IMG/VR virus record: IMGVR_UViG_3300025647_000017
Source of the DNA: an uncultured virus (IMG/VR IMGVR_UViG_3300025647_000017)
Lineage: Duplodnaviria; Heunggongvirae; Uroviricota; Caudoviricetes
Length of the DNA stretch: 64,000 bases
Strand: one strand, 5' to 3'
Made by a program: the position numbers and the translations under genes. The notes beneath the pieces are model-generated. The model had not been told where the DNA came from. It saw only the letters and a list, made by a program, of their open reading frames with translations, and ran no database searches. Shown piece by piece: positions 23,719 to 63,409 of this stretch; the first letter of the stretch is position 1, and each line of letters starts with the position of its first letter.

Positions 23719-24284
23719 TACGTTTTCCCTGTTTCTATAGCAAGTCCAGTAAGTTTGAACCCATCAACAACCGTTTTAGTACCAGTCTTAGGGTCAGTGG
23801 TGCCAGCTAAAGATGAACCTGTACCAGCACTAGGAGATACTGTGACAGTTGTTAATGTGTCAAGGGATGCCTTCATACCAAAATCTAATTGCTGTATTGA
23901 GAGGTTGACTGCAAGGCTATCCTTACCTTCCTTCATATAGGAAAAACTTGTTATAACACAATTATCAAACGAAGGAACCATCCTATCTTCAGTACCATAC
24001 AGAGTAAATACTACCACATCATCAATAACTTGATTGACTAGAGTAATATAATCTTCTGGTGCAGGAGAGTCATTCCTCACTTTAGTTTGGTTAATTGTGC
24101 CAACTAAGTTTATACTAGGTAAATCTGGGTGGTAATGATCACTAACCTTGACACCAGACTGCAGAGTATGTTGAGCCACTGATGCTGAACGTGTAACTTC
24201 CATAGAAGATGTAACGTCCAACACCAATACAGTAGTGCCGTCCTTGGCTAGGAGGAACACTACATTTTTTAATAAACTAGCCAT
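23718..24284 (-). CDS. Tail tube initiator or Dit-like protein
   Basis: H.LQSG..VSDH motif; directly downstream of tape measure. Confidence 0.7.
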   Translation of the reverse strand: MASLLKNVVFLLAKDGTTVLVLDVTSSMEVTRSASVAQHTLQSGVKVSDHYHPDLPSINLVGTINQTKVRNDSPAPEDYITLVNQVIDDVVVFTLYGTEDRMVPSFDNCVITSFSYMKEGKDSLAVNLSIQQLDFGMKASLDTLTTVTVSPSAGTGSSLAGTTDPKTGTKTVVDGFKLTGLAIETGKT

Positions 24285-27200
24285 TAGTTTTGTACCTCCC
24301 TTATTTTAGAGTCAACCATATCTTTCACTGCACCACTATTTGAAATAGTAACACCCATCTTCTCTGCATCTGCACCAATAGTGATGTTAACTGCATTTGA
24401 ACTAGATGAACTTCCAAACCACGATGGTGATTTATTTGTTGCATCAAACCAAGTTGGTAACCCTAATCCTTGGTCTAACTTGTCAGCGAATAAGAATAGG
24501 TTTTTAAAACTATCATAGAATGGTGTGAGTGGTGAATTAGATAATGTTTTATCCATGCCAGACATGTAACCTGATCCTAGAGTAAAACCGCTGTTACCTT
24601 TTTTCTTCTCACGAGGGTCAAATAATACACCAATTTTATCTTGGTTAAATAAGTTGATTAATTCCTCACCCCAGAATGCAGCCATTTTGATACTATCTGC
24701 AATAGCTAAAGCTGCGGCTACAACAGGACTCATTCTGCCTAATAAACCTGTGAACATAGGTAAGAACCTACTCATAGTTTTTAAGCTGATAGCCCAGTAT
24801 CCAGCAAATGCTGCCATTGGTACTAAGAAGCTACTGTCACCCATTAGTTTAGTTAAGTCATCAAGTAGTACACCAACAGCTTTAAGTGTAGGAGTGACGG
24901 CTTTTAGACCTGCAGAGAGGATCTTAAACACTGAACCAATGATACGACCTAGTGATACCCATAAAGGTTTAAGGTCAACCACAGACTTTGCAGTCTCGTT
25001 AAATAGTTCAGTCAAACCTTCGGCAAATCCAGACTTAAATATCAAGTCACCAGCTTCTTGGAATGATAAACCTAAACGGTTCATTGCCACACGGTTAGAT
25101 AACATGGCTTTGTCTAAACCACCATTAGCACGAGCAGCCTCAGACATACGTTTAGCAAAGAATGGTAATACCTTTTCAGATATCAAACCACCAGTTTGCT
25201 GTAGTGCCATCATAGATGCAACTGAACCATCTAAGGTTAAACCTGCGTCTTTTGCTGCCAGAGCCATTTGTAATATGGCATTTGGTAATACTTCCCCCAT
25301 TTGGAGTTTTCATTTATATACCTAAATTTTCACTTAGGATTAGACTATATCTTAACCCTGACGGGTCTGTATTTTCGAGTAAGATTCTACCCTACATCCT
25401 ATCGGATTAGTCTTTTGAGGTTATACCCTTTTTGCGTTGGCTCTTAGATATGTATTTACCTACCCACCAAGTATAGTCTTTGCTAATATTTTCAAAAGAA
25501 CATCTATATTTTATATTATTAACAGACTTCTTGTTTATCAGATCAGGAATGTCATATAAATCACAAATAAATTTACAACCAAAACCATATTCAAGTAGGT
25601 CACATATTTGTTTTGCTATTATAACAGTCATATTATCCGTAGGTTCTGGTTGTAAATTGTAGTCTTTTGTAAACCAAGAATACAAAACTCCAGTACGTAA
25701 TTTACTTATCTTATTTTTACTTACACCAGTAATAGTGTGTATTTCTAAGGTAGATTTACCACCCTCTATAAGTTTACAGATATCTTCCATAACACTAAGG
25801 GCTAGATCCCTTTTATGGTCACTGGCATGTTCAGGCATATTATCTACATAATGTTTTGAATTCTCTTTGTAGGTTATCCATTCAAGATTGTTCACATTGC
25901 AGTTACTTTTGTCCAAGTCTTTATGATTGACTATCAACCCTTTTTGGTAGGTATCTAATAAGAATGCTTTTGCAACTAAAGTATGACAATTTCTGTACAT
26001 ATTCTTGCCGTTTACACCTCTTAAATTAACACCCCAATAACCACCATCATAAATTCTTCTACTTAGATATCTGTTACTTTTATAACTATACACATTCCCA
26101 TTTTTTATCTACTGAATAGTCTGGGAATTCTTCTATCACTTTTAGCATTATAATCTCCTTCAATGGAGATCAGGTATATTCCTAACGGATTACCTAATCT
26201 TGACACATTTTTACTTTACCAAACACATTACTGTTTGCCCTAACCTATATTACTATGGCTAGTTAGTAGTGTCAAGCTCTAAAGGCTTTCCCGTTTTAAC
26301 ACATTTTATTTAGACACATTTCTGTGAATAGAGCCAAAACTTGAGTTAAATCAATAACTTAGCTCTTCTGCTGAAACTACCCCTTTCAATTCTGTTAATA
26401 TTAGTCGTTAATTAATATATACCTTTTAGTATCTCTATATTACTATAGATGTTCAGACTATATCTTCACTATTTTACAGTGCATTACGTTTCGATACCAC
26501 TTAGTACCTACATCCTATCGGATTAGTCGTTGAGGGCCACCTAGATTATTCTAGACTCCCTGCTGATCACCCAAGTTGGGCTTCCCAGCATATATAATGT
26601 TTTACATGAGCTAAGGTTAACTCATCCTATACACCCTGTATTACTACAAGGATTAGACTATATCTTAACCTTCAACTTAATGTTAAGGTTATTTACGCTT
26701 CGAGGACAATTTATTATCACCCCCTACACTCTTACGAGTTAGTCTTTACACGTTCCTCTTATATGAGGCTTCGCTCGGTATTGTCCTACTTCCTTTTAGG
26801 AGTTTCACCGAATTCATAAATTTAATTATTCATCATATTTCTATGAAGCCAAACAATGATTTATTTGTTGCAAAGCGTTTGTCTATGGACTATATCTTAA
26901 TCCTAAAAAAGGATTCCTTATTTTCGATTAAACTGTATAATCTACACCCTAAAGGGTTAGTCTCTGAAGGTTCTTACTTTAGTAAGGTTCCCTGCTGATT
27001 GTCTCTAATGAAATATCCCAGCAATTAAAAAGGTTTTACATTTAATATTACTATTAAAAGGAGCCACAAACCATTTAGCTCTTGTACTTTCTTCTGCACT
27101 TAGCCCTAGAAGGGTTGACATTTCTGAAATTCCTACGAAAGAGGCTTTCACATCTTCCAGACTCATCTTCCCTCGTGCAGATAACATCTTGGCAAAGTTC

Positions 27201-28021
27201 TTACCACTTGATGCTAATCCTAACCCCAGTCTGTATGCTTCGTCCCTGACGAACTTGAAGTTGTCACCTGCTTCCTTGGAGTTTGTACTTACTGCCAACA
27301 TTGTATTACTTACAGATTCGAAATCCTGTCCTACTCTAGTAATACCTACACCCAACCCTGCTACAGCGAACGCTGATAACATGTTACCTGCAAACTGTTT
27401 ACTGGATGCTGACATACGTTGCATAAGGAAGTTCTGCTTGTGCATAGAACGTTCTGATTGCCTCATAACACGGAGTCTTTCCCTCTCCATAGCAATGAGT
27501 AACCTAACTTCTTTTGCAGTCCTAGCCTTAGCTACAGACTCTCTCAATGCAGCTTGAGCTAGACGTTCTTGCTCATTGGTAGCAGCTTTAAGGTTTAACC
27601 CTGATCTTCCAAAAGTTTCTTTGGCTGAACTAAGGTTGGTTACTCGTCTACTTTCCATCCTAGCTTGTCTATTTAACTCTGCTTCTCTAGCTTTAACATG
27701 AGCATTATTACTAGGTAAGCTTGTTGGTATTCCAGCTTTAGCTCTTTCTACTGCAGCTTTTTTCTCAAACTTTATGTTCTGTTTAATTGCTGCAATATGT
27801 GCTGCACTTAAATCCTTTTCTCGTTTAACTTTATTATTGTATTCTTTATTTAAATGCTTCTCACGTTCCTTATGGTGAGCATTCATCATCTTCTGATTAG
27901 AACGAGTAGAGGCTTCTTGTTTCTTACCAAAATTCCCCATCTTCTTCTCGAAGTCTTGTAACTTTTTAAGTGCGGTATCAAACCCTACCTCCACCGTATA
28001 CTTTACAATTTCCTCTGCCAT
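24284..28021 (-). CDS. Tape measure protein, spliced from 5 exons: 28021..27077, 26882..26863, 26626..26620, 26386..26361, 25310..24284 (674 aa)
   Basis: Splicing gives ...EESTRA|TNALQQM|MS|KGVVSAEEL|KLQMGEVLP..., the conserved tape-measure domain motif; total 2025 nt in frame; follows the tail chaperones. Confidence 0.92.
25311..26360 (-). mobile_element. Group I intron TMP-i4 (1050 nt) with HNH ORF in P6
   Basis: P1 GAGCU/GGCUC; P10 AGUUUU/AAAACU; extended P5; P7 GACUA/UAGUC; P9 GAAA; terminal G at 25311. Confidence 0.92.
25407..26148 (-). pseudogene. Intron-encoded NUMOD4-HNH homing endonuclease with a +1 frameshift in an A6 run
   Basis: AAGGAG RBS and ATG at 26148 give MLKVIEEFPDYSVDK; one extra A at 26101-26106 breaks continuity with NGNVYSYKS...H.LVA..F...VNHKD..K.NC..NNLEW. 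Confidence 0.75.
26387..26619 (-). mobile_element. Group I intron TMP-i3 (233 nt, no ORF)
   Basis: P1 AUGAGU/GCUCAU; P10 CCUU/AAGG; UGCUGG..UCAGCA P4; P7; P9 GUAA; begins with in-frame UAA. Confidence 0.92.
26627..26862 (-). mobile_element. Group I intron TMP-i2 (236 nt, no ORF)
   Basis: P1 CAAAU/GUUUG; P10 UCAUU/GAUGA; UUCGGUG..ACCGAG P4; P7; P2 GAAA and P9 GUAA tetraloops. Confidence 0.92.
26883..27076 (-). mobile_element. Group I intron TMP-i1 (194 nt, no ORF, no P9)
   Basis: P1 GAGCU/GGCUC; P10 GUUUGU/ACAAAC; AAUUGCUGGGA and AAUCAGCAGG core; ends AAGAUAUAGUCCAUAG. Confidence 0.88.
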
Positions 28022-28041
28022 TATTATTTCACCTTATGTTG

Positions 28042-28404
28042 TTACATATTCCCTGCTACTTTACTCATCATATTTCTCTTATCTTCAGCATTCTTGTTAT
28101 CCATTTCTGCTGCTTGTCTCAAGTCGTTATAATAATCTACTAATGATGCCAACTCTAAAAACTCTTCCACACTATATTCCCATTTAAGAGTGCTTAATGT
28201 CTCACTGCAATATTCAGAGTTAGCGATCATAAAGAACATACTATCTACTGCGAAGTTTTCTCTTTGCTTACTGGCGTACTCGATGACGTCCCACTGATTT
28301 CTTCGTTTATATCTTTCTTTAAGTTCTCGACTATATCTTTCATTTTTGGACTCAGCAACGCCATTACTTTCTCTATCGAAGTACGAATCATAGCGTTGCC
28401 CCAC
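28042..28404 (-). CDS. Tail assembly chaperone, -1 frame extension (GT/E'-like)
   Basis: The -1 frame opens exactly at the TTTTTTG slippery site; lies between the chaperone and tape measure. Confidence 0.65.
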   Translation of the reverse strand: MGQRYDSYFDRESNGVAESKNERYSRELKERYKRRNQWDVIEYASKQRENFAVDSMFFMIANSEYCSETLSTLKWEYSVEEFLELASLVDYYNDLRQAAEMDNKNAEDKRNMMSKVAGNM

Positions 28405-28823
28405 AAAAAATCCTTAAAGTTTTCCGTGAATAACCAGAACAATACCTCCAAGTAATCCCCATTGTGGTCATCAAAGTGATCCTCAATAGCGTCCATACTC
28501 ATTTCTTCGCCTTTGATCATTAAGCTACCAATCATCTTACGACTTAAATCATCGAAGTGTTCTGGTGTTACATGAGAGGTTAACATGGTGAGCATCTTAC
28601 CGAACAAGTTAGATGAAGGTTCCATATAATTATCATCACGTTCTTGCTTCTCCATGACAGCATCAATACCACTTCCTGCTGCTGGTGATAACACTGTGAT
28701 GAGTTTAAAGCCTTCCTTCATAATATCATATGTTGACATCTTACTAGCCTTGTACAAACGTTCCTCTCCGTCTGTGCCAGTAATAAGTTTACTAATAATT
28801 CTTTTGTTATAACGTGTAGCCAT
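28245..28823 (-). CDS. Tail assembly chaperone
   Basis: Between tail tube and tape measure; ENFKDF motif near the slippery site. Confidence 0.75.
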   Translation of the reverse strand: MATRYNKRIISKLITGTDGEERLYKASKMSTYDIMKEGFKLITVLSPAAGSGIDAVMEKQERDDNYMEPSSNLFGKMLTMLTSHVTPEHFDDLSRKMIGSLMIKGEEMSMDAIEDHFDDHNGDYLEVLFWLFTENFKDFLWGNAMIRTSIEKVMALLSPKMKDIVENLKKDINEEISGTSSSTPVSKEKTSQ

Positions 28824-29378: not shown

Positions 29379-30746
29379 TTATACTAGCTCTGCAGCTTCA
29401 TAAGTTAAGTTACCGTTAACGATAATAGTATTTACTGCACCAGCTAAATAACCTGTCCATTTTACGTTATCTAGGATACGTGCTACTTTCTCTGAGAACG
29501 GAATTTCAGTTAGGTAATCTGGCATTGTTGCACCGATATAACCTGATAAGAAACCTACGTCTACCGCACGATCTAATACTGAGTTAATAGTGCTGATAAC
29601 TGCACCAGCTTCAGTGAATGAAACCTTGCCACCCTTCTGGTTTAATAGTAGGTTTAATAGTGCTACTTCAATTTGGTCGTTTAACCAGTCACTTCCAACG
29701 ACCACATCTAGCCATTCTCCACCAACTGTCTTACCTTCACGATAGAATGCAACTTTACGTTCTTCTCCCATCCAACCACCGTTGCGGTCATCAATGTAAC
29801 CTTGTAGGCGAGTAGGTAATTTCTTGCCAGTAACTAAATCTGCTGCAACTGGAACACCAGTAGTTTGCATGAACTTATAGTTTACTGAACCAGCTTGATA
29901 TGGGGAGTTGTAGCTAAAGTTACCAATCTCTGGGAATACTGTATCTGCTGCATGGTTCCAATCACACACTGTACGGAAGTACTTAAGCGCTTTCAATTCA
30001 CCGATAACGTCAATCGCTGGGTCAACTACTGGTTTAATAGTGTCGGCATCAGTTGTTGATGTCCAATAGATTTTAGGAAAGTTACCACCACTTGTAGCTT
30101 CAATCTCAGCAGCCATAGCTAACTGGAAGGCTTTAGCATGGTCTTCAGAAGATAAACAGTACCAATCATTCTCTTCATCTTGAATTGCTTGTAGTAAGTC
30201 TGCTGCTGTCTCTGTAGTGATATATGAGTCAGAAGTTTTAACAAAATCTTTAACTACTACAGTGAATGTAGCATCAGCTTCAACTTCAACAGTGTCACCT
30301 ACTGCAGTGAATGTAGTGTTAGCTGGAGCTAAACCTTCCCAAATGGCAGCAATAGATGCTTTGGTTGCAACTGCTGCAGTAGCTGTGATTGGTGTAGTAG
30401 AAACTAAAGCACCTGCTGCATCGTATACATTTACATTGAAACTATACACATTACCAATAACCACATCCTCTGATGGAGTCATTACAGCAGTATCAGTTTG
30501 ACGACGACCTAAGTATACTCGACTTGGTGCTGGGTTCTGACTGAATGCTAAACGTGCAGCATTATATGAGTTTGAACCTGATGGGATTGCATCATCATCA
30601 CGAACTTCATCCCATGAACCATATGAGCGAGTACGCTCAAAAAAGTAATTATGTGCTGCTACGAATAATGGGAAGTCTAATGAAATCCCTTCAGCACTAG
30701 TTGTGTTTCGAGTAATAGAACTCGATACCGAATCTTGGTATGGCAT
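29379..30746 (-). CDS. Tail sheath protein (DUF3383-like)
   Basis: FSQNPAP, GEWLDVVVGSDWL and LAGAV motifs. Confidence 0.88.
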   Translation of the reverse strand: MPYQDSVSSSITRNTTSAEGISLDFPLFVAAHNYFFERTRSYGSWDEVRDDDAIPSGSNSYNAARLAFSQNPAPSRVYLGRRQTDTAVMTPSEDVVIGNVYSFNVNVYDAAGALVSTTPITATAAVATKASIAAIWEGLAPANTTFTAVGDTVEVEADATFTVVVKDFVKTSDSYITTETAADLLQAIQDEENDWYCLSSEDHAKAFQLAMAAEIEATSGGNFPKIYWTSTTDADTIKPVVDPAIDVIGELKALKYFRTVCDWNHAADTVFPEIGNFSYNSPYQAGSVNYKFMQTTGVPVAADLVTGKKLPTRLQGYIDDRNGGWMGEERKVAFYREGKTVGGEWLDVVVGSDWLNDQIEVALLNLLLNQKGGKVSFTEAGAVISTINSVLDRAVDVGFLSGYIGATMPDYLTEIPFSEKVARILDNVKWTGYLAGAVNTIIVNGNLTYEAAELV

Positions 30747-58020: not shown

Positions 58021-59127
58021 CTACTTATTCAGTTCAGTAATATACCATGTACGTGCTTTAGTTGATAGGTATTTTCCCACTTCCTTCATTGTAAGGTTAT
58101 TACTTTCAAGGACATCACCTTCTTCTTTATTAATGTCTTTACTTACCCAACTAAGGAATGCACCAATTAACTTCTGGTCTTTACCTACCTCAGCTAAGCC
58201 TTGTTGTAGTCTATTCTCTGTGGCGGAATACTCTACAAACTCTTGAATTGAATTTAACTTTTCTACATTGACTGAAGCTACAGATTTAACTTTAGACACA
58301 GAATGTTTTTCACCTTTAGTTTTAAACCAATTACCACTGTCCCAGCAATGTTCATCACTAACTGGAGTCCATACTAACCCCTCTCCAAGGACTTGTGGTT
58401 TACCTGCGGCGCTCATTAGGTTAAGTTGTTTTGACACAGGACACTCAGCCTCACAAGCTTCAGTGTAACCTACTAGAGTGTTCTGGACAAACATAGGATT
58501 CTGGAAATCAATAGTGACCTTCTTTGTAGGAAAATCTATGATAGCGTAGAAACCGTCAGCTTGGGTATCATTATTAGTAAGCCCATAAGTTAGTTCTACT
58601 GGCAACCAACCTTGTTTCAGTGTTTGGTCAGTATCCCCAGCCTTGATACCAAAAATAAATAAAGACTTCTTAGGCAAGAACGAGATACCAACCGAACTCT
58701 GAATACCACTTCCACACCATTCACCTGAAATCTTAAGAGGGTATAACTCAACACCATTGTAAGCTTTGGCAAAAGTCTTTGCTCTTTCTATAATAGTGTA
58801 CAGAGAATCTAACCTACGAACCATTGTTTGAGCGAACTCAGCATTATCTGAAAGTAAAGTAAATCCTCCATTTTTAATATAACCTAGTAAATTATTCTTA
58901 CTATGGAACGAAATAACCCCGTCTTCATCAACTACAATACTAGCATTAGTCCCATGTAACTTCACAGTACCAATGTATTCAATAGTAGGTGCAATAGCAA
59001 GTTCATTTAAGATAACATTACCATCTGCATCAAACCCATTAAATTTAGCTTGTTGTTGAATATTCTTAACCACATTACGGAATTGACCAGTAGAGTGGAA
59101 TGAGTAGTTTGTTGGTTGTTGTGACAT
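58021..59127 (-). CDS. RNA ligase, Rnl2-like
   Basis: KLHGTN (motif I), GEW.G, EGLVW and FKTK motifs. Confidence 0.82.
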   Translation of the reverse strand: MSQQPTNYSFHSTGQFRNVVKNIQQQAKFNGFDADGNVILNELAIAPTIEYIGTVKLHGTNASIVVDEDGVISFHSKNNLLGYIKNGGFTLLSDNAEFAQTMVRRLDSLYTIIERAKTFAKAYNGVELYPLKISGEWCGSGIQSSVGISFLPKKSLFIFGIKAGDTDQTLKQGWLPVELTYGLTNNDTQADGFYAIIDFPTKKVTIDFQNPMFVQNTLVGYTEACEAECPVSKQLNLMSAAGKPQVLGEGLVWTPVSDEHCWDSGNWFKTKGEKHSVSKVKSVASVNVEKLNSIQEFVEYSATENRLQQGLAEVGKDQKLIGAFLSWVSKDINKEEGDVLESNNLTMKEVGKYLSTKARTWYITELNK

Positions 59128-59350: not shown

Positions 59351-61947
59351 TTACTTGATGCGGCTTCTGTGGGCAGCCAATGCCGTGGGGGAGGAGATTG
59401 TTGGTAGTGGGTAGGCTTTATGCAATTTAGTCTTTTGCAGAAAAGCCATACAATCGCCAGCGCAGTCAACCCAGTCATCCTTGATCGATGCTGTAGATGG
59501 ACTTCCATCAAAAGCTTCTAACTCTTTGTAGAAAGCCTCTAAAGTGGCTTTATTTTCAAAAGAACTTTCAACTATATGTACTAACCCATTCTGACATGCA
59601 GAAGAGAATATAGAGAAACGCTTTACTTTGCCACCTTTTACGTTACCAACTTCAGAACCTCTTACATGAAAACCTTCATTTGTAAGCATCTTAGCTAAGT
59701 CTTCAAACTGCGCCTTACCAGCGCCACTCTCTTTAGGCAGTAATATATAAGTATCTTCTCCATCCCATTGAGCTTGTTGCAACATCCATGTATTTCTCTC
59801 GCCAAAGCGTTTCCTAAACCTACCAACTACATCAGTTTTAGGGTCTTTTATCTCTGGGTGATAATTAGCAACTATAAAATATAGGCCGTCCTTTCTAATC
59901 ATACGTACTGATGCAGAATAATCTGGATATCTATTTTTGTCACTAGGTTCAGAATGAGCTAAATCCCATGCTCTACATGCTAAACCTCCAACTGGCTCAT
60001 TATCTACTTTGTGTAACCACTCCCTCTGGAATAGGTTACTCCCTTCTGGTCTTGCTAGCCAATTCGATTTGTTACAAAATTGTTAAATCTTGCACCTTAC
60101 GGTCTCTATGTCACCATAGAAGTTCAGACTATATCTTTACCTATTAAGGTATCTAACATTTCCACCTACTAGAAGTAAGCGTACACCATTTCTGGTTAGT
60201 CGTTGCACTACACAATTATATATTTTGCATAGCTCAGTATTGTCTCAGAGAGATATCCACTGAATTAAATAGATTTATAAAGACGGCAATTGTTCACCGT
60301 CTAGTAGTCTTGCCCTGTTAATCTTAGTCTGTGCCTTAAGTGCAGACAGATACTTCGGATTTTGTTTGATTAGGGCTGGATTCTTAACTCCTTGTTTTAT
60401 AACAAGGAGTTTGGACTATATCTTCACCTCTAAAGGTGTTCTATTTTCGAGTATAAGCACCCTACACCCTAACGGGTTAGTCTCTGAAGGTGTTAACCTA
60501 TGGTTAACGTCCCTGCTGATTGTCTTTAGTTTATAAAGAGTTCCCAGCAATTAAAAGAATTTTCACCATGAAATTACTAACATGGGCGACAATCATCTAT
60601 CGAATATATTTCCCCCAATAAAACAAAACGTCATTGGAGGGACGTACACTGTCTTATCTTCAATTGGATTATACACATAACATAGGTCTGGGTATTGCTC
60701 TGCCAATGTTTCAGGATCATCTGCGAACACTGGGGTATCATCAACTACCAAGAAATATCTTATATGCCCTAATTTACTCTCATCAAACACTCCAGTTTCA
60801 TCTAAATAATACTCTACCCATTGAAAAACCCAACTATCTGCATCTGGGTTGGTAGTGGCTAACATAAATGAATCACTGTCTGCAGCAGAACGCATACGTC
60901 CCATTAAATATAAAAACTGCGAACAAGTGAAGTGAGTTAGTTCATCGAATCCGACAAAAGAATATTGTAAACCTTGCTTGTAACCTATTGATTACTATGG
61001 ACTATATCACTGTCTACTTAGTAGACACTCTATTTTCGAGATTGTATTAATCCCTACACCCTAACGGGTTAGTCTCTGAAGGTGTTAACCTAGGGTTAAC
61101 GTCCCTGCTGATTGGTCACTACGTGACTATCCCAGCAATTAAAAGAGTTATTCGAAACACATTACTGTATTAAGCCACCAAATTTTAATGGTTACCTTCC
61201 GCGTCACTTTCATGCTCAAGGTGTGTAAATTTAAGGTTGCCTCCTTTATTACCCTCTGCACCACTGAACATGATTTCCATGTCCTTTTCTCTCACCCTTG
61301 TTCCTAGGGGTTGGTATAATTTCTTTGCCTCACTAAACAGACCACCTGCTGCTTTCAATGGAGGGGAAGTCCTACGGAACATTACCCCCTCAAAGTTGGG
61401 GTCGTTGTGAGCGTAATACCCTGCCTTCAATAAGAGTAACCTACTTTTGCCAGATCCTGCCAAACTGGACTATTATTCTTTATGTCACCATAAAGCTTAG
61501 ATCATATCTTCCACATATAAGTGGCTTTCCATTTCGAGTATAAATACCCTACACCTCTTCAGGTTGATCGTTGCACACAGTATAATTAAATACCTTCGCT
61601 CAGTATTGTCTCGTAGAGATATCCACTGAATTAGAAAAGTTGATTATCGAGGTGCCACAGGATTTACTAGCACCTCCGTAGATCATTACATCTACCTTCA
61701 TTTGCGCTGCTAACGCTTGTTTCACTACCTTACGTGGATCGTTACACCACTCTATGCATTACTGCACAAGTTGAGACTATATCTTATTACTCTATTGTTT
61801 CGAGTTCACTTGAACTCTACATCCTTTCGGATTAGTCGTTACACGTTTTTAATTCGCTAGGTATTATCCTATAAGGGACCTTCACCTAATTAAATAGATT
61901 TATAGTAGGCAAACATTACCTACTTGCGGGGATAATTCATTACTCAT
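59351..61947 (-). CDS. terL: Terminase large subunit, spliced from 6 exons: 61947..61918, 61722..61669, 61460..61188, 60976..60599, 60382..60296, 60064..59351 (511 aa)
   Basis: Splicing restores SPQVG|KQ, Walker A YGGA|AGSGKS, H|QGLQYSFVGFDELTHF Walker B, TTNP, D|NPAL, RLLDG|NW, RAWDLA, PDYSA and DDWVD; 1536 nt in frame. Confidence 0.93.
60065..60295 (-). mobile_element. Group I intron terL-i5 (231 nt, no ORF)
   Basis: P1 GACGGU/GCCGUC; P10 CAAUU/AAUUG; P7 GACUA/UAGUC; P9 GUGA; terminal G at 60065. Confidence 0.92.
60383..60598 (-). mobile_element. Group I intron terL-i4 (216 nt, no ORF)
   Basis: P1 CGAU/GUCG; P10 GAUU/AAUC; UUGCUGG..UCAGCAG core; P7; terminal G at 60383. Confidence 0.92.
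60977..61187 (-). mobile_element. Group I intron terL-i3 (211 nt, no ORF)
   Basis: P1 CCAU/GUGG; P10 UUG/CAA; begins with UAA; core nearly identical to i4; terminal G at 60977. Confidence 0.92.
61461..61668 (-). mobile_element. Group I intron terL-i2 (208 nt, no ORF), inside Walker A
   Basis: P1 GAGGUGCU/GGCACCUC; P10 UCCUGU/GCAGGA; variant P7 GAUCA/UGAUC; P9 GUGA. Confidence 0.92.
61723..61917 (-). mobile_element. Group I intron terL-i1 (195 nt, no ORF, no P2 or P8)
   Basis: P1 GUAGGU/GCCUAC; P10 UGUUU/AAACA; P3 UCUAUU/AAUAGA; P7; P9 GUAA; terminal G at 61723. Confidence 0.9.
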
Positions 61948-63409
61948 AACTGTACCTCTCTTTGTATAAATCTTCTATAAAAGATATATCTATATTATTG
62001 GAGAAGATGTCAGAGATATTAGGTAATATTACATCATCATTACTCCCGTCTATAATATCATTAACCATCTCGTATAGAGTACTATCTAGGTTGAATATTT
62101 CCGTATACCCTCCGAATTTTATATTTGATTTTACCTGTAGTGGCTTGAAGAACATTTTTAAACTACTTTCAATCCTAGCACAATCTAGATATGACATCCT
62201 TCTGTAATTGAGGAATGTAAAAACAGAGTCTAGTGGTAGGTCTTTCTTGTATGTATACTCCCTACTAGATAGGCTACTAGTAATACCTATTTTATAAACA
62301 TTATCATCTAAGGAATCCACATATCCTAGGTAAAAATACCCATACTTCTTATGGATATTAGGTATTTTCAATATAGAGGCTATAGACCACCTATTCATAC
62401 CTAACTTACCACACGTAGGGCAACCAGAGTTTTTATTCTTATCCCTGTGCATTAGAGGGGTAACATTAAACCATTCATCGTGCTGATTACACTTAAGTTT
62501 AACCTTAGTGGTATTATTTACATACTGCACTAAGGAGTAATCTAGCGCACCATTCCCATATTCCACAATAGAATCAGAGATAAATTGGTCTTTACCTAAA
62601 AACATACCTTCCCTAGAACATTTCTGACAACCTTGCCCATTTACATGGTTATTGGCTATAACAGAAAATTCACCATGCCCTTGTTCCTTGCAAAACACTT
62701 TAACATTTTCAACAGCATTGATATATTCAGTATTGGTGTAGTCGTATAAGTTATTATGTACCTCCATTGCCTCTTTAATAAAAGCTTCGTTGGTTTTTGT
62801 CATGGATATTTTACGATCTTCTTCTCCGCATGTAGGGCAACCTTGCCCTTGTATATGTGCAGACGGTCTCTGTTTAAAAGGGATGTTGTGTTTTGTACAT
62901 AAGATCTCCATCATAGTGCGACTACAAACATAGTCCTCTACGTTATACACATATTTATCTCCGTGCAATGCTTTTGCTTTAGTGATGAAGACCTCACCTT
63001 CTTTTAAAATTTTACAATTACCACACCCACCATAGGGAGTATCTCTAACAGAAGATAAAGTAGATACATAGTGTCCATGTAACATACAGAACATATCTTG
63101 TTTAGAGTGTATGGTTTGGTACTCAGGGTTATCTAATACCTCATATTTATCACCGTGAGCCTTTTCAATTAAACCCTTCTGTATTTCAAAGTTCTCTCGT
63201 CTTCGTATAGCCAATGCACAATCACCGCACCTTTGTCTTGCGTGAATATGAGAGGAAGGCATCATAGTAAACTCACCATGTATTGGGCATATAATCCTAA
63301 TACTAGTCAACATAGCTATATATGGGTCTGGGTATTCATAATAGTCACCGTGGATAGCCTTCGCTTTTTCTATGAAAGTTTTAGTATTAAATTTTTCAGC
63401 CAATAGCAA
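61940..63409 (-). CDS. Free-standing homing endonuclease: about 5 Zn-ribbon (DUF723-like) repeats plus a GIY-YIG/T5orf172-like domain
   Basis: Repeated F..KA..HG..Y.Y..Y......I.C..HG.F..P..H..G.GC..C; YFYL..YKIGIT...R and GGYTE.F; its 3' end overlaps the terL start codon. Confidence 0.8.
   Translation of the reverse strand: MLLAEKFNTKTFIEKAKAIHGDYYEYPDPYIAMLTSIRIICPIHGEFTMMPSSHIHARQRCGDCALAIRRRENFEIQKGLIEKAHGDKYEVLDNPEYQTIHSKQDMFCMLHGHYVSTLSSVRDTPYGGCGNCKILKEGEVFITKAKALHGDKYVYNVEDYVCSRTMMEILCTKHNIPFKQRPSAHIQGQGCPTCGEEDRKISMTKTNEAFIKEAMEVHNNLYDYTNTEYINAVENVKVFCKEQGHGEFSVIANNHVNGQGCQKCSREGMFLGKDQFISDSIVEYGNGALDYSLVQYVNNTTKVKLKCNQHDEWFNVTPLMHRDKNKNSGCPTCGKLGMNRWSIASILKIPNIHKKYGYFYLGYVDSLDDNVYKIGITSSLSSREYTYKKDLPLDSVFTFLNYRRMSYLDCARIESSLKMFFKPLQVKSNIKFGGYTEIFNLDSTLYEMVNDIIDGSNDDVILPNISDIFSNNIDISFIEDLYKERYSYE

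What the first reader, a model, noticed from the sequence alone, without database searches (positions are those of the whole stretch)
25311..27076. Tape-measure gene broken by four back-to-back introns separated by 20-, 7- and 26-nt micro-exons
Seen: exon 2 is ACAAACGCTTTGCAACAAAT (26882-26863), exon 3 is GATGAGT (26626-26620) and exon 4 is AAAGGGGTAGTTTCAGCAGAAGAGCT (26386-26361). Joined, they read STRA|TNALQQM|MS|KGVVSAEEL|KLQMGEVLP, the conserved tape-measure domain signature. All four insertion sites fall within 53 nt of mature mRNA. The ORF track shows only two fragments and about 900 nt of apparent junk. Inference: this motif is an extreme insertion hotspot, and such dense micro-exon structure is unusual for a phage gene.
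Basis: partly seen in the sequence, partly recalled or inferred. Interest (0 to 1): 0.9.

Follow-up and report, generated by a model that had tools for sequence, protein, structure and literature searches.

The report
Tape-measure gene with four self-splicing introns
A phage tail tape-measure gene is interrupted at its most conserved motif by four back-to-back group I introns that leave exons of only 20, 7 and 26 bases, a denser version of an arrangement already shown to splice in the cholera phage ICP1.

Summary
On the minus strand, the tape-measure (TMP) gene 28021..24284 carries four group I introns: A 27076-26883, B 26862-26627, C 26619-26387 and D 26360-25311. Intron D holds an HNH_3 endonuclease ORF. 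The exons between them are 20, 7 and 26 nt, and the joined frame is 674 aa with no stop.

Support:
- Rfam hits (3 of 4 above gathering score).
- Seven uninterrupted homologues with a 54-nt gap.
- Relatives whose DNA lacks individual introns at exactly the predicted joints.
- P1/P10 guide pairings that co-vary with synonymous exon changes.

The hotspot reading also holds. In 19 related genomes or contigs, 12 are interrupted by 37 introns at seven sites within 89 nt. Two relatives carry five introns, with exons down to 7-8 nt. This stretch is the most conserved 30-aa window of the aligned core.

The kind is not new. Barth et al. 2023 (PMC10448857) showed by RNA-seq and RT-PCR that the homologous ICP1 TMP gene has three introns. 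By my mapping these lie in the same motif.

Splicing in this phage is untested, because the window comes from a metagenome. I rate it a new variant of a known kind, of moderate interest.

The parts
27077..28021 (-). TMP exon 1 (315 codons, ends ..STRA with GCT)
   Evidence: ORF list. tblastn with intact homologues ends here. DP exon.
26883..27076 (-). Group I intron A (194 nt, no ORF, no P9)
   Evidence: Rfam 58.9 bits. P1 GAGCU/GGCUC 5 bp. P10 6 bp. The site is empty in L025. A metagenome contig skips exactly this stretch (side 30, likeness 85).
26863..26882 (-). Micro-exon 2 (20 nt; T N A L Q Q + AT)
   Evidence: DP. Contiguous with exons 1 and 3 in L025.
26627..26862 (-). Group I intron B (236 nt, no ORF)
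   Evidence: Rfam 82.6 bits. P1 CAAAU/GUUUG. P10 5 bp on exon 3. A metagenome contig skips exactly 26627-26862.
26620..26626 (-). Micro-exon 3 (7 nt, GATGAGT)
   Evidence: DP. It lies in the 4-nt gap between the Rfam hits for B and C. Its bases serve both the P10 of intron B and the P1 of intron C.
26387..26619 (-). Group I intron C (233 nt, no ORF; 46-nt tail after P9)
   Evidence: Rfam 58.4 bits for 26433-26629. P1 AUGAGU/GCUCAU 6 bp. No adjacent P10. The site is empty in Shewanella phage 1/40.
26361..26386 (-). Micro-exon 4 (26 nt; K G V V S A E E + CT)
   Evidence: tblastn hit on KGVVSAEEL. DP.
25311..26360 (-). Group I intron D (1050 nt) carrying the HNH gene
   Evidence: Rfam 3' half 25.3 bits, E 0.0017. 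No Rfam hit on the 5' half alone. The 5' half aligns with five other D-site introns including ICP1's; 16 of 41 predicted pairs have compensatory changes. P1 AGAGCU/GGCUCU. P10 6 bp.
25407..26148 (-). HNH_3 homing-endonuclease gene inside intron D, broken by a +1 frameshift in the A-run 26101-26106 (ATG 26148-26146 with AAGGAG upstream; main ORF 26093-25407)
   Evidence: Pfam PF13392, E 4.4e-08, 33.1 bits. Three-frame translation. The 97%-relative L026 and a 126-kb metagenome contig lack the extra A and read through.
24284..25310 (-). TMP exon 5 (last base of the Leu codon, then KLQMGEVLP.. to the stop)
   Evidence: tblastn, DP, ORF list.

Best explanation
The gene at 28021..24284 (minus strand) is the tail tape-measure gene of a myovirus related to Shewanella phages 1/4 and 1/40 and, more distantly, to Vibrio phage ICP1. 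Four independent group I introns (A-D) have inserted at four different positions within 53 nt of coding sequence. This places them in the centre of the TMP signature domain.

Each intron recognises its own 5' exon end through a 5-6 bp P1 helix with a U.G pair at the splice site, and each ends in G. Three of the four also pair their guide sequence with the start of the following exon (P10). Self-splicing of all four should join exons of 945, 20, 7, 26 and 1027 nt into an mRNA for a 674-aa TMP.

The 7-nt exon is used both as the P10 partner of intron B and as the P1 partner of intron C. These two pairings therefore cannot exist at the same time.

The motif is a hotspot for two reasons:
- It is the most conserved DNA in the gene, so homing sites persist across phages and imprecise intron loss would be lethal.
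- One intron per array carries an HNH endonuclease. Repair after its cut is likely to co-convert neighbours only tens of bases away, so ORF-less introns would hitch-hike.

Shown here: anatomy, boundaries, guide pairings with covariation, presence/absence polymorphism, and site-specific intron lineages. Inferred: actual splicing in this phage, splicing order, endonuclease activity and the co-conversion mechanism.
For: Rfam:
- 4 hits in the region.
- In relatives, 34 of the 37 mapped introns have an RF00028 hit at E<=0.1.

Exon structure:
- 7 of 19 related genomes or contigs are uninterrupted, each with exactly 54 nt between the flanking blocks. They read TNAIQQMMS/KGVVSAEEL or INALQQMMS/KGVVSAEEL there.

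Empty sites in natural DNA:
- A and B are empty in L025.
- C is empty in phage 1/40.
- D is empty in phage 1/4 and L012.
- Metagenome contigs skip exactly 26627-26862 and 26883-27076.

The array is not an assembly artefact:
- A contig from a different study spans 26435-26998 with 0 differences.
- Another contig spans 25512-26456.

Guide pairings:
- P1 of 4-8 bp in 37 of 37 introns, with compensatory exon/guide changes. At site B: CAAAU/GUUUG versus CAGAU/GUCUG. At site D: AGAGCU/GGCUCU, GGAAUU/GGUUCC, GGAAUU/GAUUCC, AGAGUU/GAUUCU, GAACU/GGUUC.
- P10 of 4 bp or more in 18 of 25 introns tested, against 8.4% for random 8-mers from the same loci. Window introns A, B and D have 6, 5 and 6 bp.

Lineages and endonuclease:
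- Each window intron's best BLAST partners are introns at the same site in other phages.
- Exactly one long intron (777-1138 nt) occurs per array in 12 of 12 arrays. It is annotated or scored as HNH in the window, 1/40, 1/4, K470, 1.193.O and ICP1.

Conservation and gene identity:
- The hotspot is the top-ranked 30-aa window of a 246-aa core in 17 genomes. Amino-acid conservation is 0.896 against a mean of 0.751; nucleotide conservation is 0.80 against 0.739.
- TIGR02675 tape_meas_nterm matches intact homologues at residues 338-386 and 382-436, straddling the site. PF20155 TMP_3 matches at 261-453.

Precedent:
- The homologous ICP1 TMP gene splices three introns in vivo (PMC10448857, section 21 read).
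- ICP1's D-site intron shares its 5' end and structure with window intron D.
Against: - No RNA data exist for this phage. The window is from a freshwater metagenome and no RNA run holds it, so splicing is inferred.
- Intron D is below the Rfam gathering score (25.3 bits). Its 5' half alone gave no Rfam hit.
- Intron C shows no P10 directly adjacent to P1. It also has a 46-nt tail beyond the Rfam model, so its 3' splice site rests on homology alone.
- Intron A lacks P9 (alignment).
- The HNH gene in the window is frameshifted, so this copy may be immobile, or the extra A may be an assembly error.
- The two metagenome joints were found at likeness 85 with only 30 letters on the short side. The tool warns this is borderline.
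- U at -1 and G at the intron end were built into the DP, so they are not independent evidence for the relatives' introns.
- The co-conversion (hitch-hiking) idea has no direct test here.
Confidence: 0.85

Rival explanations
1. The TMP is really made as two separate polypeptides (the two 338-aa ORFs). The 1.8 kb between them is unspliced mobile DNA.
For: The ORF scan shows two ORFs of 338 aa. Public records of relatives annotate separate 'tape measure' and 'hypothetical' proteins.
Against: The last 23 residues of the first ORF are intron read-through. The 18 missing residues are encoded precisely by three micro-exons flanked by group I splice signals. They form the most conserved part of the protein. 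The second ORF's ATG lies inside the conserved KLQMGEV motif, with no upstream Shine-Dalgarno-like sequence evident in the bases shown. ICP1 cDNA shows the joined form.
Confidence: 0.03
2. One or more of the four introns no longer splices. The metagenomic genome is then a defective or decaying variant, or needs a host or phage factor.
For: Intron A lacks P9, intron C lacks an adjacent P10, and intron D scores only 25.3 bits. The HNH gene is frameshifted. There is no RNA evidence. In Bastillevirinae, four of eight spliced genes spliced only in infected cells (PMC11878797 abstract).
Against: The same A-B(-C)-D array is present in isolated, plaque-forming phages (1/40: A, B, D; 1/4: A, B, C', E) and in at least two further contigs. 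The DNA recurs in runs of several studies. Exons are under clear purifying selection and the guide sequences track exon changes.
Confidence: 0.08
3. The tandem array is an assembly chimera created by the shared intron core sequences.
For: The window is a metagenome assembly. The introns share core words such as the P7 3' strand.
Against: Contigs from another study bridge exons 2 and 3 with 0 differences, and another contig bridges exon 4. An IMG/VR contig is identical over the region. Isolate genomes show the same architecture.
Confidence: 0.02
4. The array is used for regulated or alternative splicing (exon skipping) to make TMP isoforms, not only tolerated as parasites.
For: Skipping exons 2+3 (27 nt) would stay in frame. 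The 5' exon ends at sites A and D are the same 7-mer, and their guides are nearly the same, so distal splice-site use is conceivable. Exon skipping is documented in Twort orf142 across a 23-nt exon (PMC10136302 passage) and in phage SIOphi (PMC11878797 passages).
Against: The skipped residues are among the most conserved in the protein. Skipping exons 2-4 (53 nt) would shift the frame. No RNA data exist.
Confidence: 0.1

Closest known systems
Vibrio phage ICP1 tape-measure gene (Barth, Nguyen & Seed 2023, PMC10448857)
   Same: It is a homologous TMP: 58% identity over the 140 aa before the site. Three introns and four exons were shown by RNA-seq, RT-PCR and Sanger sequencing, with an HNH-3 gene in the middle intron. 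By my mapping its introns sit in the same motif at sites C', D and E, with 8- and 16-nt exons. Its D-site intron shares its 5' end and helices with window intron D. ICP1 also has a spliced TerL next to a T5orf172 gene, as this window does.
   Different: The window has four introns, three of them at sites (A, B, C) that are empty in ICP1, and a 7-nt exon. Relatives reach five introns. The paper's text (section 21 and term searches) does not describe group I structure, exon sizes or a multi-site hotspot. I could not see its Figure 3 or its supplements.
Staphylococcus phage Twort orf142 (Landthaler & Shub 1999)
   Same: A phage tail gene with three group I introns, a short internal exon (23 nt) and exon skipping. 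I saw this only as cited in passages of PMC10136302 and PMC11878797.
   Different: It is a different gene (tail tube, per PMC11878797). It has fewer introns and a longer shortest exon. The original paper was not held.
Multi-intron DNA polymerase / TerL genes of Bastillevirinae (PMC11878797)
   Same: Two or three group I introns per essential gene, a small exon found between two introns, and exon skipping (abstract and passages).
   Different: Those authors found introns only in nucleotide and DNA metabolism and terminase genes (four gene families) and none in tape-measure genes ('tape measure' occurs 0 times in the text).
Phage subgroup IA2-type introns with HNH endonucleases (SPO1/SP82 I-HmuI type; T4 td)
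   Same: An ORF sits in a peripheral loop and runs into the P7 strand. There is an insertion after the GACUA strand where P7.1/P7.2 lie (alignments). The endonuclease is HNH_3.
   Different: The subgroup assignment and the I-HmuI properties are recalled from memory, not tested here.

Membership tests
Group I intron (Rfam RF00028) | Covariance-model score at or above the gathering score (50 bits) | tested here: met
   A 58.9, B 82.6 and C 58.4 bits. D scores only 25.3 bits (E 0.0017) because the ORF and a large P5 extension interrupt the model.
Group I intron (Rfam RF00028) | P1 helix between the 5' exon end and an internal guide, with U.G at the splice site | tested here: met
   4 of 4 window introns have 5-6 bp. 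The guide co-varies with exon changes at sites B and D across phages.
Group I intron (Rfam RF00028) | Terminal G at the 3' splice site and P10 pairing with the 3' exon | tested here: met
   G is last in 4 of 4. P10 is 6, 5, 0 and 6 bp for A, B, C and D. Intron C is not met for P10.
Group I intron (Rfam RF00028) | Conserved catalytic core (P3-P8, P7 strands) | tested here: met
   Rfam alignments cover model positions 1-253 for A-C. The P7 3' strand word is present in all four. The 5' half of D has P2, P4 and P5 helices with 16 of 41 pairs compensatory.
Group I intron (Rfam RF00028) | Self-splicing demonstrated | not testable with these tools
   No RNA run holds the sequence. The only evidence is by homology to ICP1.
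HNH_3 intron homing endonuclease (PF13392) | HNH_3 domain above the Pfam cut-off, and an intact ORF | tested here: inconclusive
   The domain scores 33.1 bits against a cut-off of 24.8. The ORF is broken by a +1 frameshift at 26101-26106. It is intact in L026 and in a metagenome contig. Cleavage was not tested.
Phage tape-measure protein (TIGR02675 / PF20155 TMP_3) | Domain match, and position after the tail chaperone genes | tested here: met
   Intact homologues match TIGR02675 (E 6e-09 and 9e-12) and PF20155 (E 6e-15 and 2e-20) across the site. The window halves alone match nothing but align to those homologues at E 2e-67 and 3e-50. The gene order is sheath-like (DUF3383), tube, TAC (PF21822), TMP, Dit-like.

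The most novel reading that the evidence does not exclude
This 89-nt stretch of the tape-measure gene is a multi-lineage landing pad for at least seven site-specific group I intron lineages. They coexist in arrays of up to five, with exons down to 7 nt. Such short exons force neighbouring ribozymes to share exon bases (the P10 of one against the P1 of the next), and therefore to splice in a fixed order or cooperatively. A single HNH endonuclease per array would mobilise the ORF-less neighbours by co-conversion. Arrays would then behave as composite selfish units, and as armour against rival endonucleases in phage-phage competition. If so, this would be among the densest natural group I intron arrays known to me and a tractable system for ribozyme interplay.
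Probability: 0.3. Interest if true: 0.75.

Novelty: new variant of a known kind. Interest (0 to 1): 0.55.

Why it matters
- Annotation. It shows that split 'tape measure / hypothetical protein' annotations in Shewanella phages 1/4 and 1/40 and several Vibrio phages are unannotated multi-intron genes.
- Extent. It extends the ICP1 precedent from three introns to four or five, and from three sites to seven within 89 nt.
- Test case. Exons of 7-8 nt ask how little exon a group I ribozyme needs, and how adjacent ribozymes that compete for the same exon bases splice correctly.
- Population view. Presence/absence polymorphism between near-identical phages (97% identical exon 1, entirely different intron sets) shows fast intron turnover and possible hitch-hiking on one endonuclease.

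Tried and rejected
- RNA evidence: no RNA holder was listed for the stretch, so expression and splicing could not be examined.
- An Rfam scan of the 5' half of intron D alone found nothing. It was replaced by a comparative alignment.
- The window's own assembly is not held. The nearest held record, G001, is a 24.5-kb fragment that does not cover the gene.
- The Twort paper (PMC22036) is not held. Twort facts come from passages in two citing papers.
- Earlier scan findings: none.
- Viral and metagenome scans with a single protein or a 10-sequence alignment returned only 5, 10 and 6 loci, several of them duplicates. The survey therefore covers 19 distinct genomes or contigs, not the 282 phage records that hold a homologue.
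- An alternative 3' splice site for intron B at the end of the Rfam hit (26634) was rejected because it gives an in-frame stop (sequence). The same applies to ending intron C at 26434.
- My first manual reading of a 22-nt ICP1 exon 3 was rejected in favour of 16 nt, because the guide pairs with the earlier site.
- Literature searches found no paper describing four or more group I introns in a phage TMP gene, or micro-exons of this size in phages. The library lacks most subscription journals. Figures, and the supplements of PMC10448857, were not seen.
Full report
**What is there.** ORFs on the minus strand of the window give the usual myovirus tail order:
- a DUF3383 sheath-like protein (30746..29379);
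- a tube-like protein;
- a tail assembly chaperone (PF21822, 28823..28245);
- two 338-aa ORFs (28021..27005 and 25300..24284), separated by about 900 nt without ORFs and an HNH_3 ORF (26093..25407);
- a Dit-like protein.

Neither 338-aa ORF matches a Pfam or NCBIfam family on its own.

**The introns.** An Rfam scan of 24000-28200 gives four group I intron matches on the minus strand:

| Match | Bits | E-value | Note |
|---|---|---|---|
| 26876-27087 | 58.9 | 1.5e-13 | |
| 26634-26868 | 82.6 | 1.1e-20 | |
| 26433-26629 | 58.4 | 2e-13 | |
| 25321-25530 | 25.3 | 0.0017 | 3' half of an intron interrupted by the HNH ORF |

Three further group I introns lie at 60104-61197.

**Exon boundaries.** Intact TMPs of Vibrio phages 1.063.O and 424E50-1 align to the window up to 27077 (..ESTRA) and again from 25309 (KLQMGEVLP..).

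Its constraints were T before each intron, G as the last intron base and introns of 120 nt or more. The exons are 27077 (end of exon 1), 26882-26863, 26626-26620, 26386-26361 and 25310 (start of exon 5).

The introns are therefore:
- A, 27076-26883 (194 nt);
- B, 26862-26627 (236 nt);
- C, 26619-26387 (233 nt);
- D, 26360-25311 (1050 nt).

The joined CDS is 2025 nt, giving 674 aa with no internal stop. Other candidate 3' sites, at the ends of the Rfam hits for B and C, run into in-frame stops (sequence).

**Guide-sequence evidence.** Each window intron has a 5-6 bp P1 between the last exon bases and a guide 8-30 nt into the intron, with U.G at the splice site:
- A: GAGCU/GGCUC
- B: CAAAU/GUUUG
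- C: AUGAGU/GCUCAU
- D: AGAGCU/GGCUCU

Across relatives the guide tracks synonymous exon changes:
- Site B has CAAAU/GUUUG or CAGAU/GUCUG.
- Site D has AGAGCU/GGCUCU, GGAAUU/GGUUCC, GGAAUU/GAUUCC, AGAGUU/GAUUCU, GGAACU/GGUUCC or GAACU/GGUUC.

Bases just 5' of the P1 guide pair with the start of the next exon (P10). In the window this is 6, 5, 0 and 6 bp for A, B, C and D. Over 25 introns tested, 18 have 4 bp or more, against 8.4% for random 8-mers from the same loci.

The 7-nt exon is at once the P10 partner of intron B (its bases 1-5) and the P1 partner of intron C (its bases 2-7). The two helices are therefore mutually exclusive. This follows directly. Its consequence for splicing order is inference.

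**Intron D.** Its 5' half alone gave no Rfam hit. It aligns with the 5' halves of five other D-site introns, including ICP1's. RNAalifold predicts P1, P2, P4 and a long P5 extension, and 16 of 41 pairs keep pairing through changes on both sides.

The HNH gene starts at ATG 26148-26146 behind an AAGGAG. It is broken after about 15 codons by an extra A in the run 26101-26106. The 97%-identical relative L026 and a 126-kb metagenome contig lack that A and read through. The window copy is therefore either a pseudogene or carries a homopolymer assembly error.

**Relatives.** The closest deposited genomes are Shewanella phages 1/40 and 1/4 from Baltic Sea ice, followed by Vibrio phages. I examined 19 distinct genomes or contigs with the whole region.

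Seven are uninterrupted, each with exactly 54 nt between the flanking blocks (L003, L004, L009, L020, L022, L023, L024). Twelve are interrupted. Mapping by DP, Rfam and reading gives seven sites:

| Site | Position |
|---|---|
| A | after ..RA |
| B | inside the first Met codon of QQMM |
| C | after MMS |
| C' | after VSA |
| D | inside the Leu codon of EEL |
| E | after QMG |
| F | inside the Ile codon of NAI |

All seven lie within 89 nt. Occupancy:

| Genome or contig | Sites occupied | Notes |
|---|---|---|
| Window | A, B, C, D | |
| L026 (129.7-kb contig, 97% identical) | A, B, C, C', D | five introns; exons 20, 7, 18 and 8 nt |
| L012 | A, B, C', E, F | five introns |
| Phage 1/4 | A, B, C', E | |
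| Phage 1/40 | A, B, D | |
| L025 | C, D, E | |
| HNL01 | B, D, E | |
| ICP1_2006_E | C', D, E | |
| K470 | B, D | |
| 1.193.O | B, D | |
| 11895-B1 | B, E | |
| L021 | D | |

That is 37 introns, of which 34 have an RF00028 hit at E<=0.1. The misses are L012-A, L012-E and L021-D; the last scores 18.7 bits, E 0.44.

None of the named GenBank phage records annotates an intron. They list split 'tape measure' and 'hypothetical' proteins.

**Empty sites confirm the joints.**
- L025 has an exon 1 that is 97% identical to the window's, yet carries a different intron set. It reads straight through sites A and B.
- Phage 1/40 reads through site C.
- Phage 1/4 and L012 read through site D.
- Contigs of a sediment metagenome from another study skip exactly 26627-26862, and 194 nt at 26882/3-27075/6. 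These were found at likeness 85 with 30-letter sides, which the tool flags as borderline.
- Contigs from other runs bridge exons 2-3 and exon 4 without differences, so the array is not an assembly chimera.

**Why here.**
- In a 246-aa core alignment of 17 genomes, built from spliced or intact sequences, the 30-aa window over the sites is the most conserved in both protein (0.896 against a mean of 0.751) and DNA (0.80 against 0.739).
- TIGR02675 (tape_meas_nterm) matches intact homologues at 338-386 and 382-436, centred on the sites. PF20155 spans 261-453.
- Each window intron's best BLAST partners are introns at the same site in other phages. They are therefore site-specific lineages, not local duplicates.
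- Every one of the 12 arrays has exactly one long intron (777-1138 nt). It sits at site C, D or E. The rest are 181-330 nt.
- A occurs only together with B (5 of 5 genomes with A).

From these facts I infer, without having tested it, that conserved DNA keeps homing sites available. I also infer that ORF-less introns within tens of bases of the endonuclease cut are carried along by co-conversion. The idea that flanking markers are co-converted by intron HNH enzymes is recalled from the SPO1/SP82 literature and was not checked here.

**What is already known.** Barth, Nguyen & Seed 2023 (PMC10448857; section 21 read in full and terms searched) report that TMP genes are often interrupted by homing endonuclease genes. 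They also report that the ICP1 TMP transcript has four exons and three introns. This was confirmed by RNA-seq, RT-PCR and Sanger sequencing, with an HNH-3 gene usually in the middle intron. Isolate M4 carries the endonuclease genes in the other two introns.

ICP1's TMP is 58% identical to the window's over the 140 aa before the site. My mapping puts its introns at C', D and E, with 8- and 16-nt exons. The paper's text gives no exon sizes or ribozyme analysis. I could not see its figure or supplements.

Other precedents:
- Twort orf142 has three introns, a 23-nt exon and exon skipping (passages in PMC10136302 and PMC11878797).
- Bastillevirinae genes have up to three introns, none of them in TMP genes.
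- Group I introns in TerL of phages 1/4 and 1/40 are mentioned in PMC8541194.
- Six literature searches found nothing on four or more introns in a phage TMP gene.

**Verdict.** The observation and the hotspot reading are right. The arrangement is a denser variant of a published kind: four introns here, five in relatives, seven sites, and exons down to 7 nt. Splicing in this phage remains to be shown.

**Unresolved.** In phages 1/4 and L012, the C' intron is followed by ..CTAG then AGGAATTA. Either the last intron base is the second G, so that one Glu is lost, or the base before the conserved GAGGAA exon is an A. P10 favours the second reading.

Noticed in passing
window 59351-61463 (minus), introns at 60104-60305, 60390-60609, 60979-61197: The large terminase gene is also split by three group I introns (69.4, 74.9 and 53.1 bits). 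The last piece matches Terminase_6C. A T5orf172/MUG113 endonuclease-like ORF (63409..61940) sits just upstream. This is the same layout reported for ICP1 TerL (one intron there), and introns are reported in TerL of Shewanella phages 1/4 and 1/40.
   Followed up: partly
window 26101-26106 (A-run) within 25407-26148: The intron-encoded HNH gene has a +1 frameshift relative to the 97%-identical relative L026 and to a 126-kb metagenome contig. It is either a pseudogene or a homopolymer assembly error.
   Followed up: yes
L002 5225-5262 and L012 6575-6615: The C' intron of Shewanella phage 1/4 and of contig L012 has no G directly before the conserved GAGGAA exon start. Either one Glu is lost or the terminal base is non-canonical. 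In L026 the same intron ends in G.
   Followed up: partly
L001 3940-3975, L002 4940-4975, 5225-5257 and 6030-6068; L025 2670-2701: Several introns (site B in 1/4, 1/40 and L012; C' and E in 1/4; E in L025) have 3' tails containing GTAAGT(C/T)ATTGA. This resembles the first bases of D-site introns (AAGTTATTGA..). It may be a recombination scar or a shared 3' element.
   Followed up: no
L025 versus window (exon 1 97%, exon 5 92% identical): Two near-identical phages carry entirely different intron sets (A, B, C, D versus C, D, E). The HNH gene is in intron D in one and in intron C in the other, which implies rapid turnover.
   Followed up: partly
window 58021-59127 (minus): An RNA ligase family ORF (PF09414, E 1.6e-09) lies directly downstream of the intron-rich terminase gene.
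   Followed up: no
window 28042-28823 (minus): Overlapping ORFs 28823..28245 (PF21822 tail assembly chaperone) and 28404..28042 look like the usual chaperone frameshift pair. Relatives annotate a joined CDS there.
   Followed up: no
L001, L002, L005, L006, L007, L008 (public phage records): The TMP genes of Shewanella phages 1/40 and 1/4 and of Vibrio phages K470, 11895-B1, HNL01 and 1.193.O are annotated as separate proteins or 'hypothetical'. No intron features are given.
   Followed up: yes
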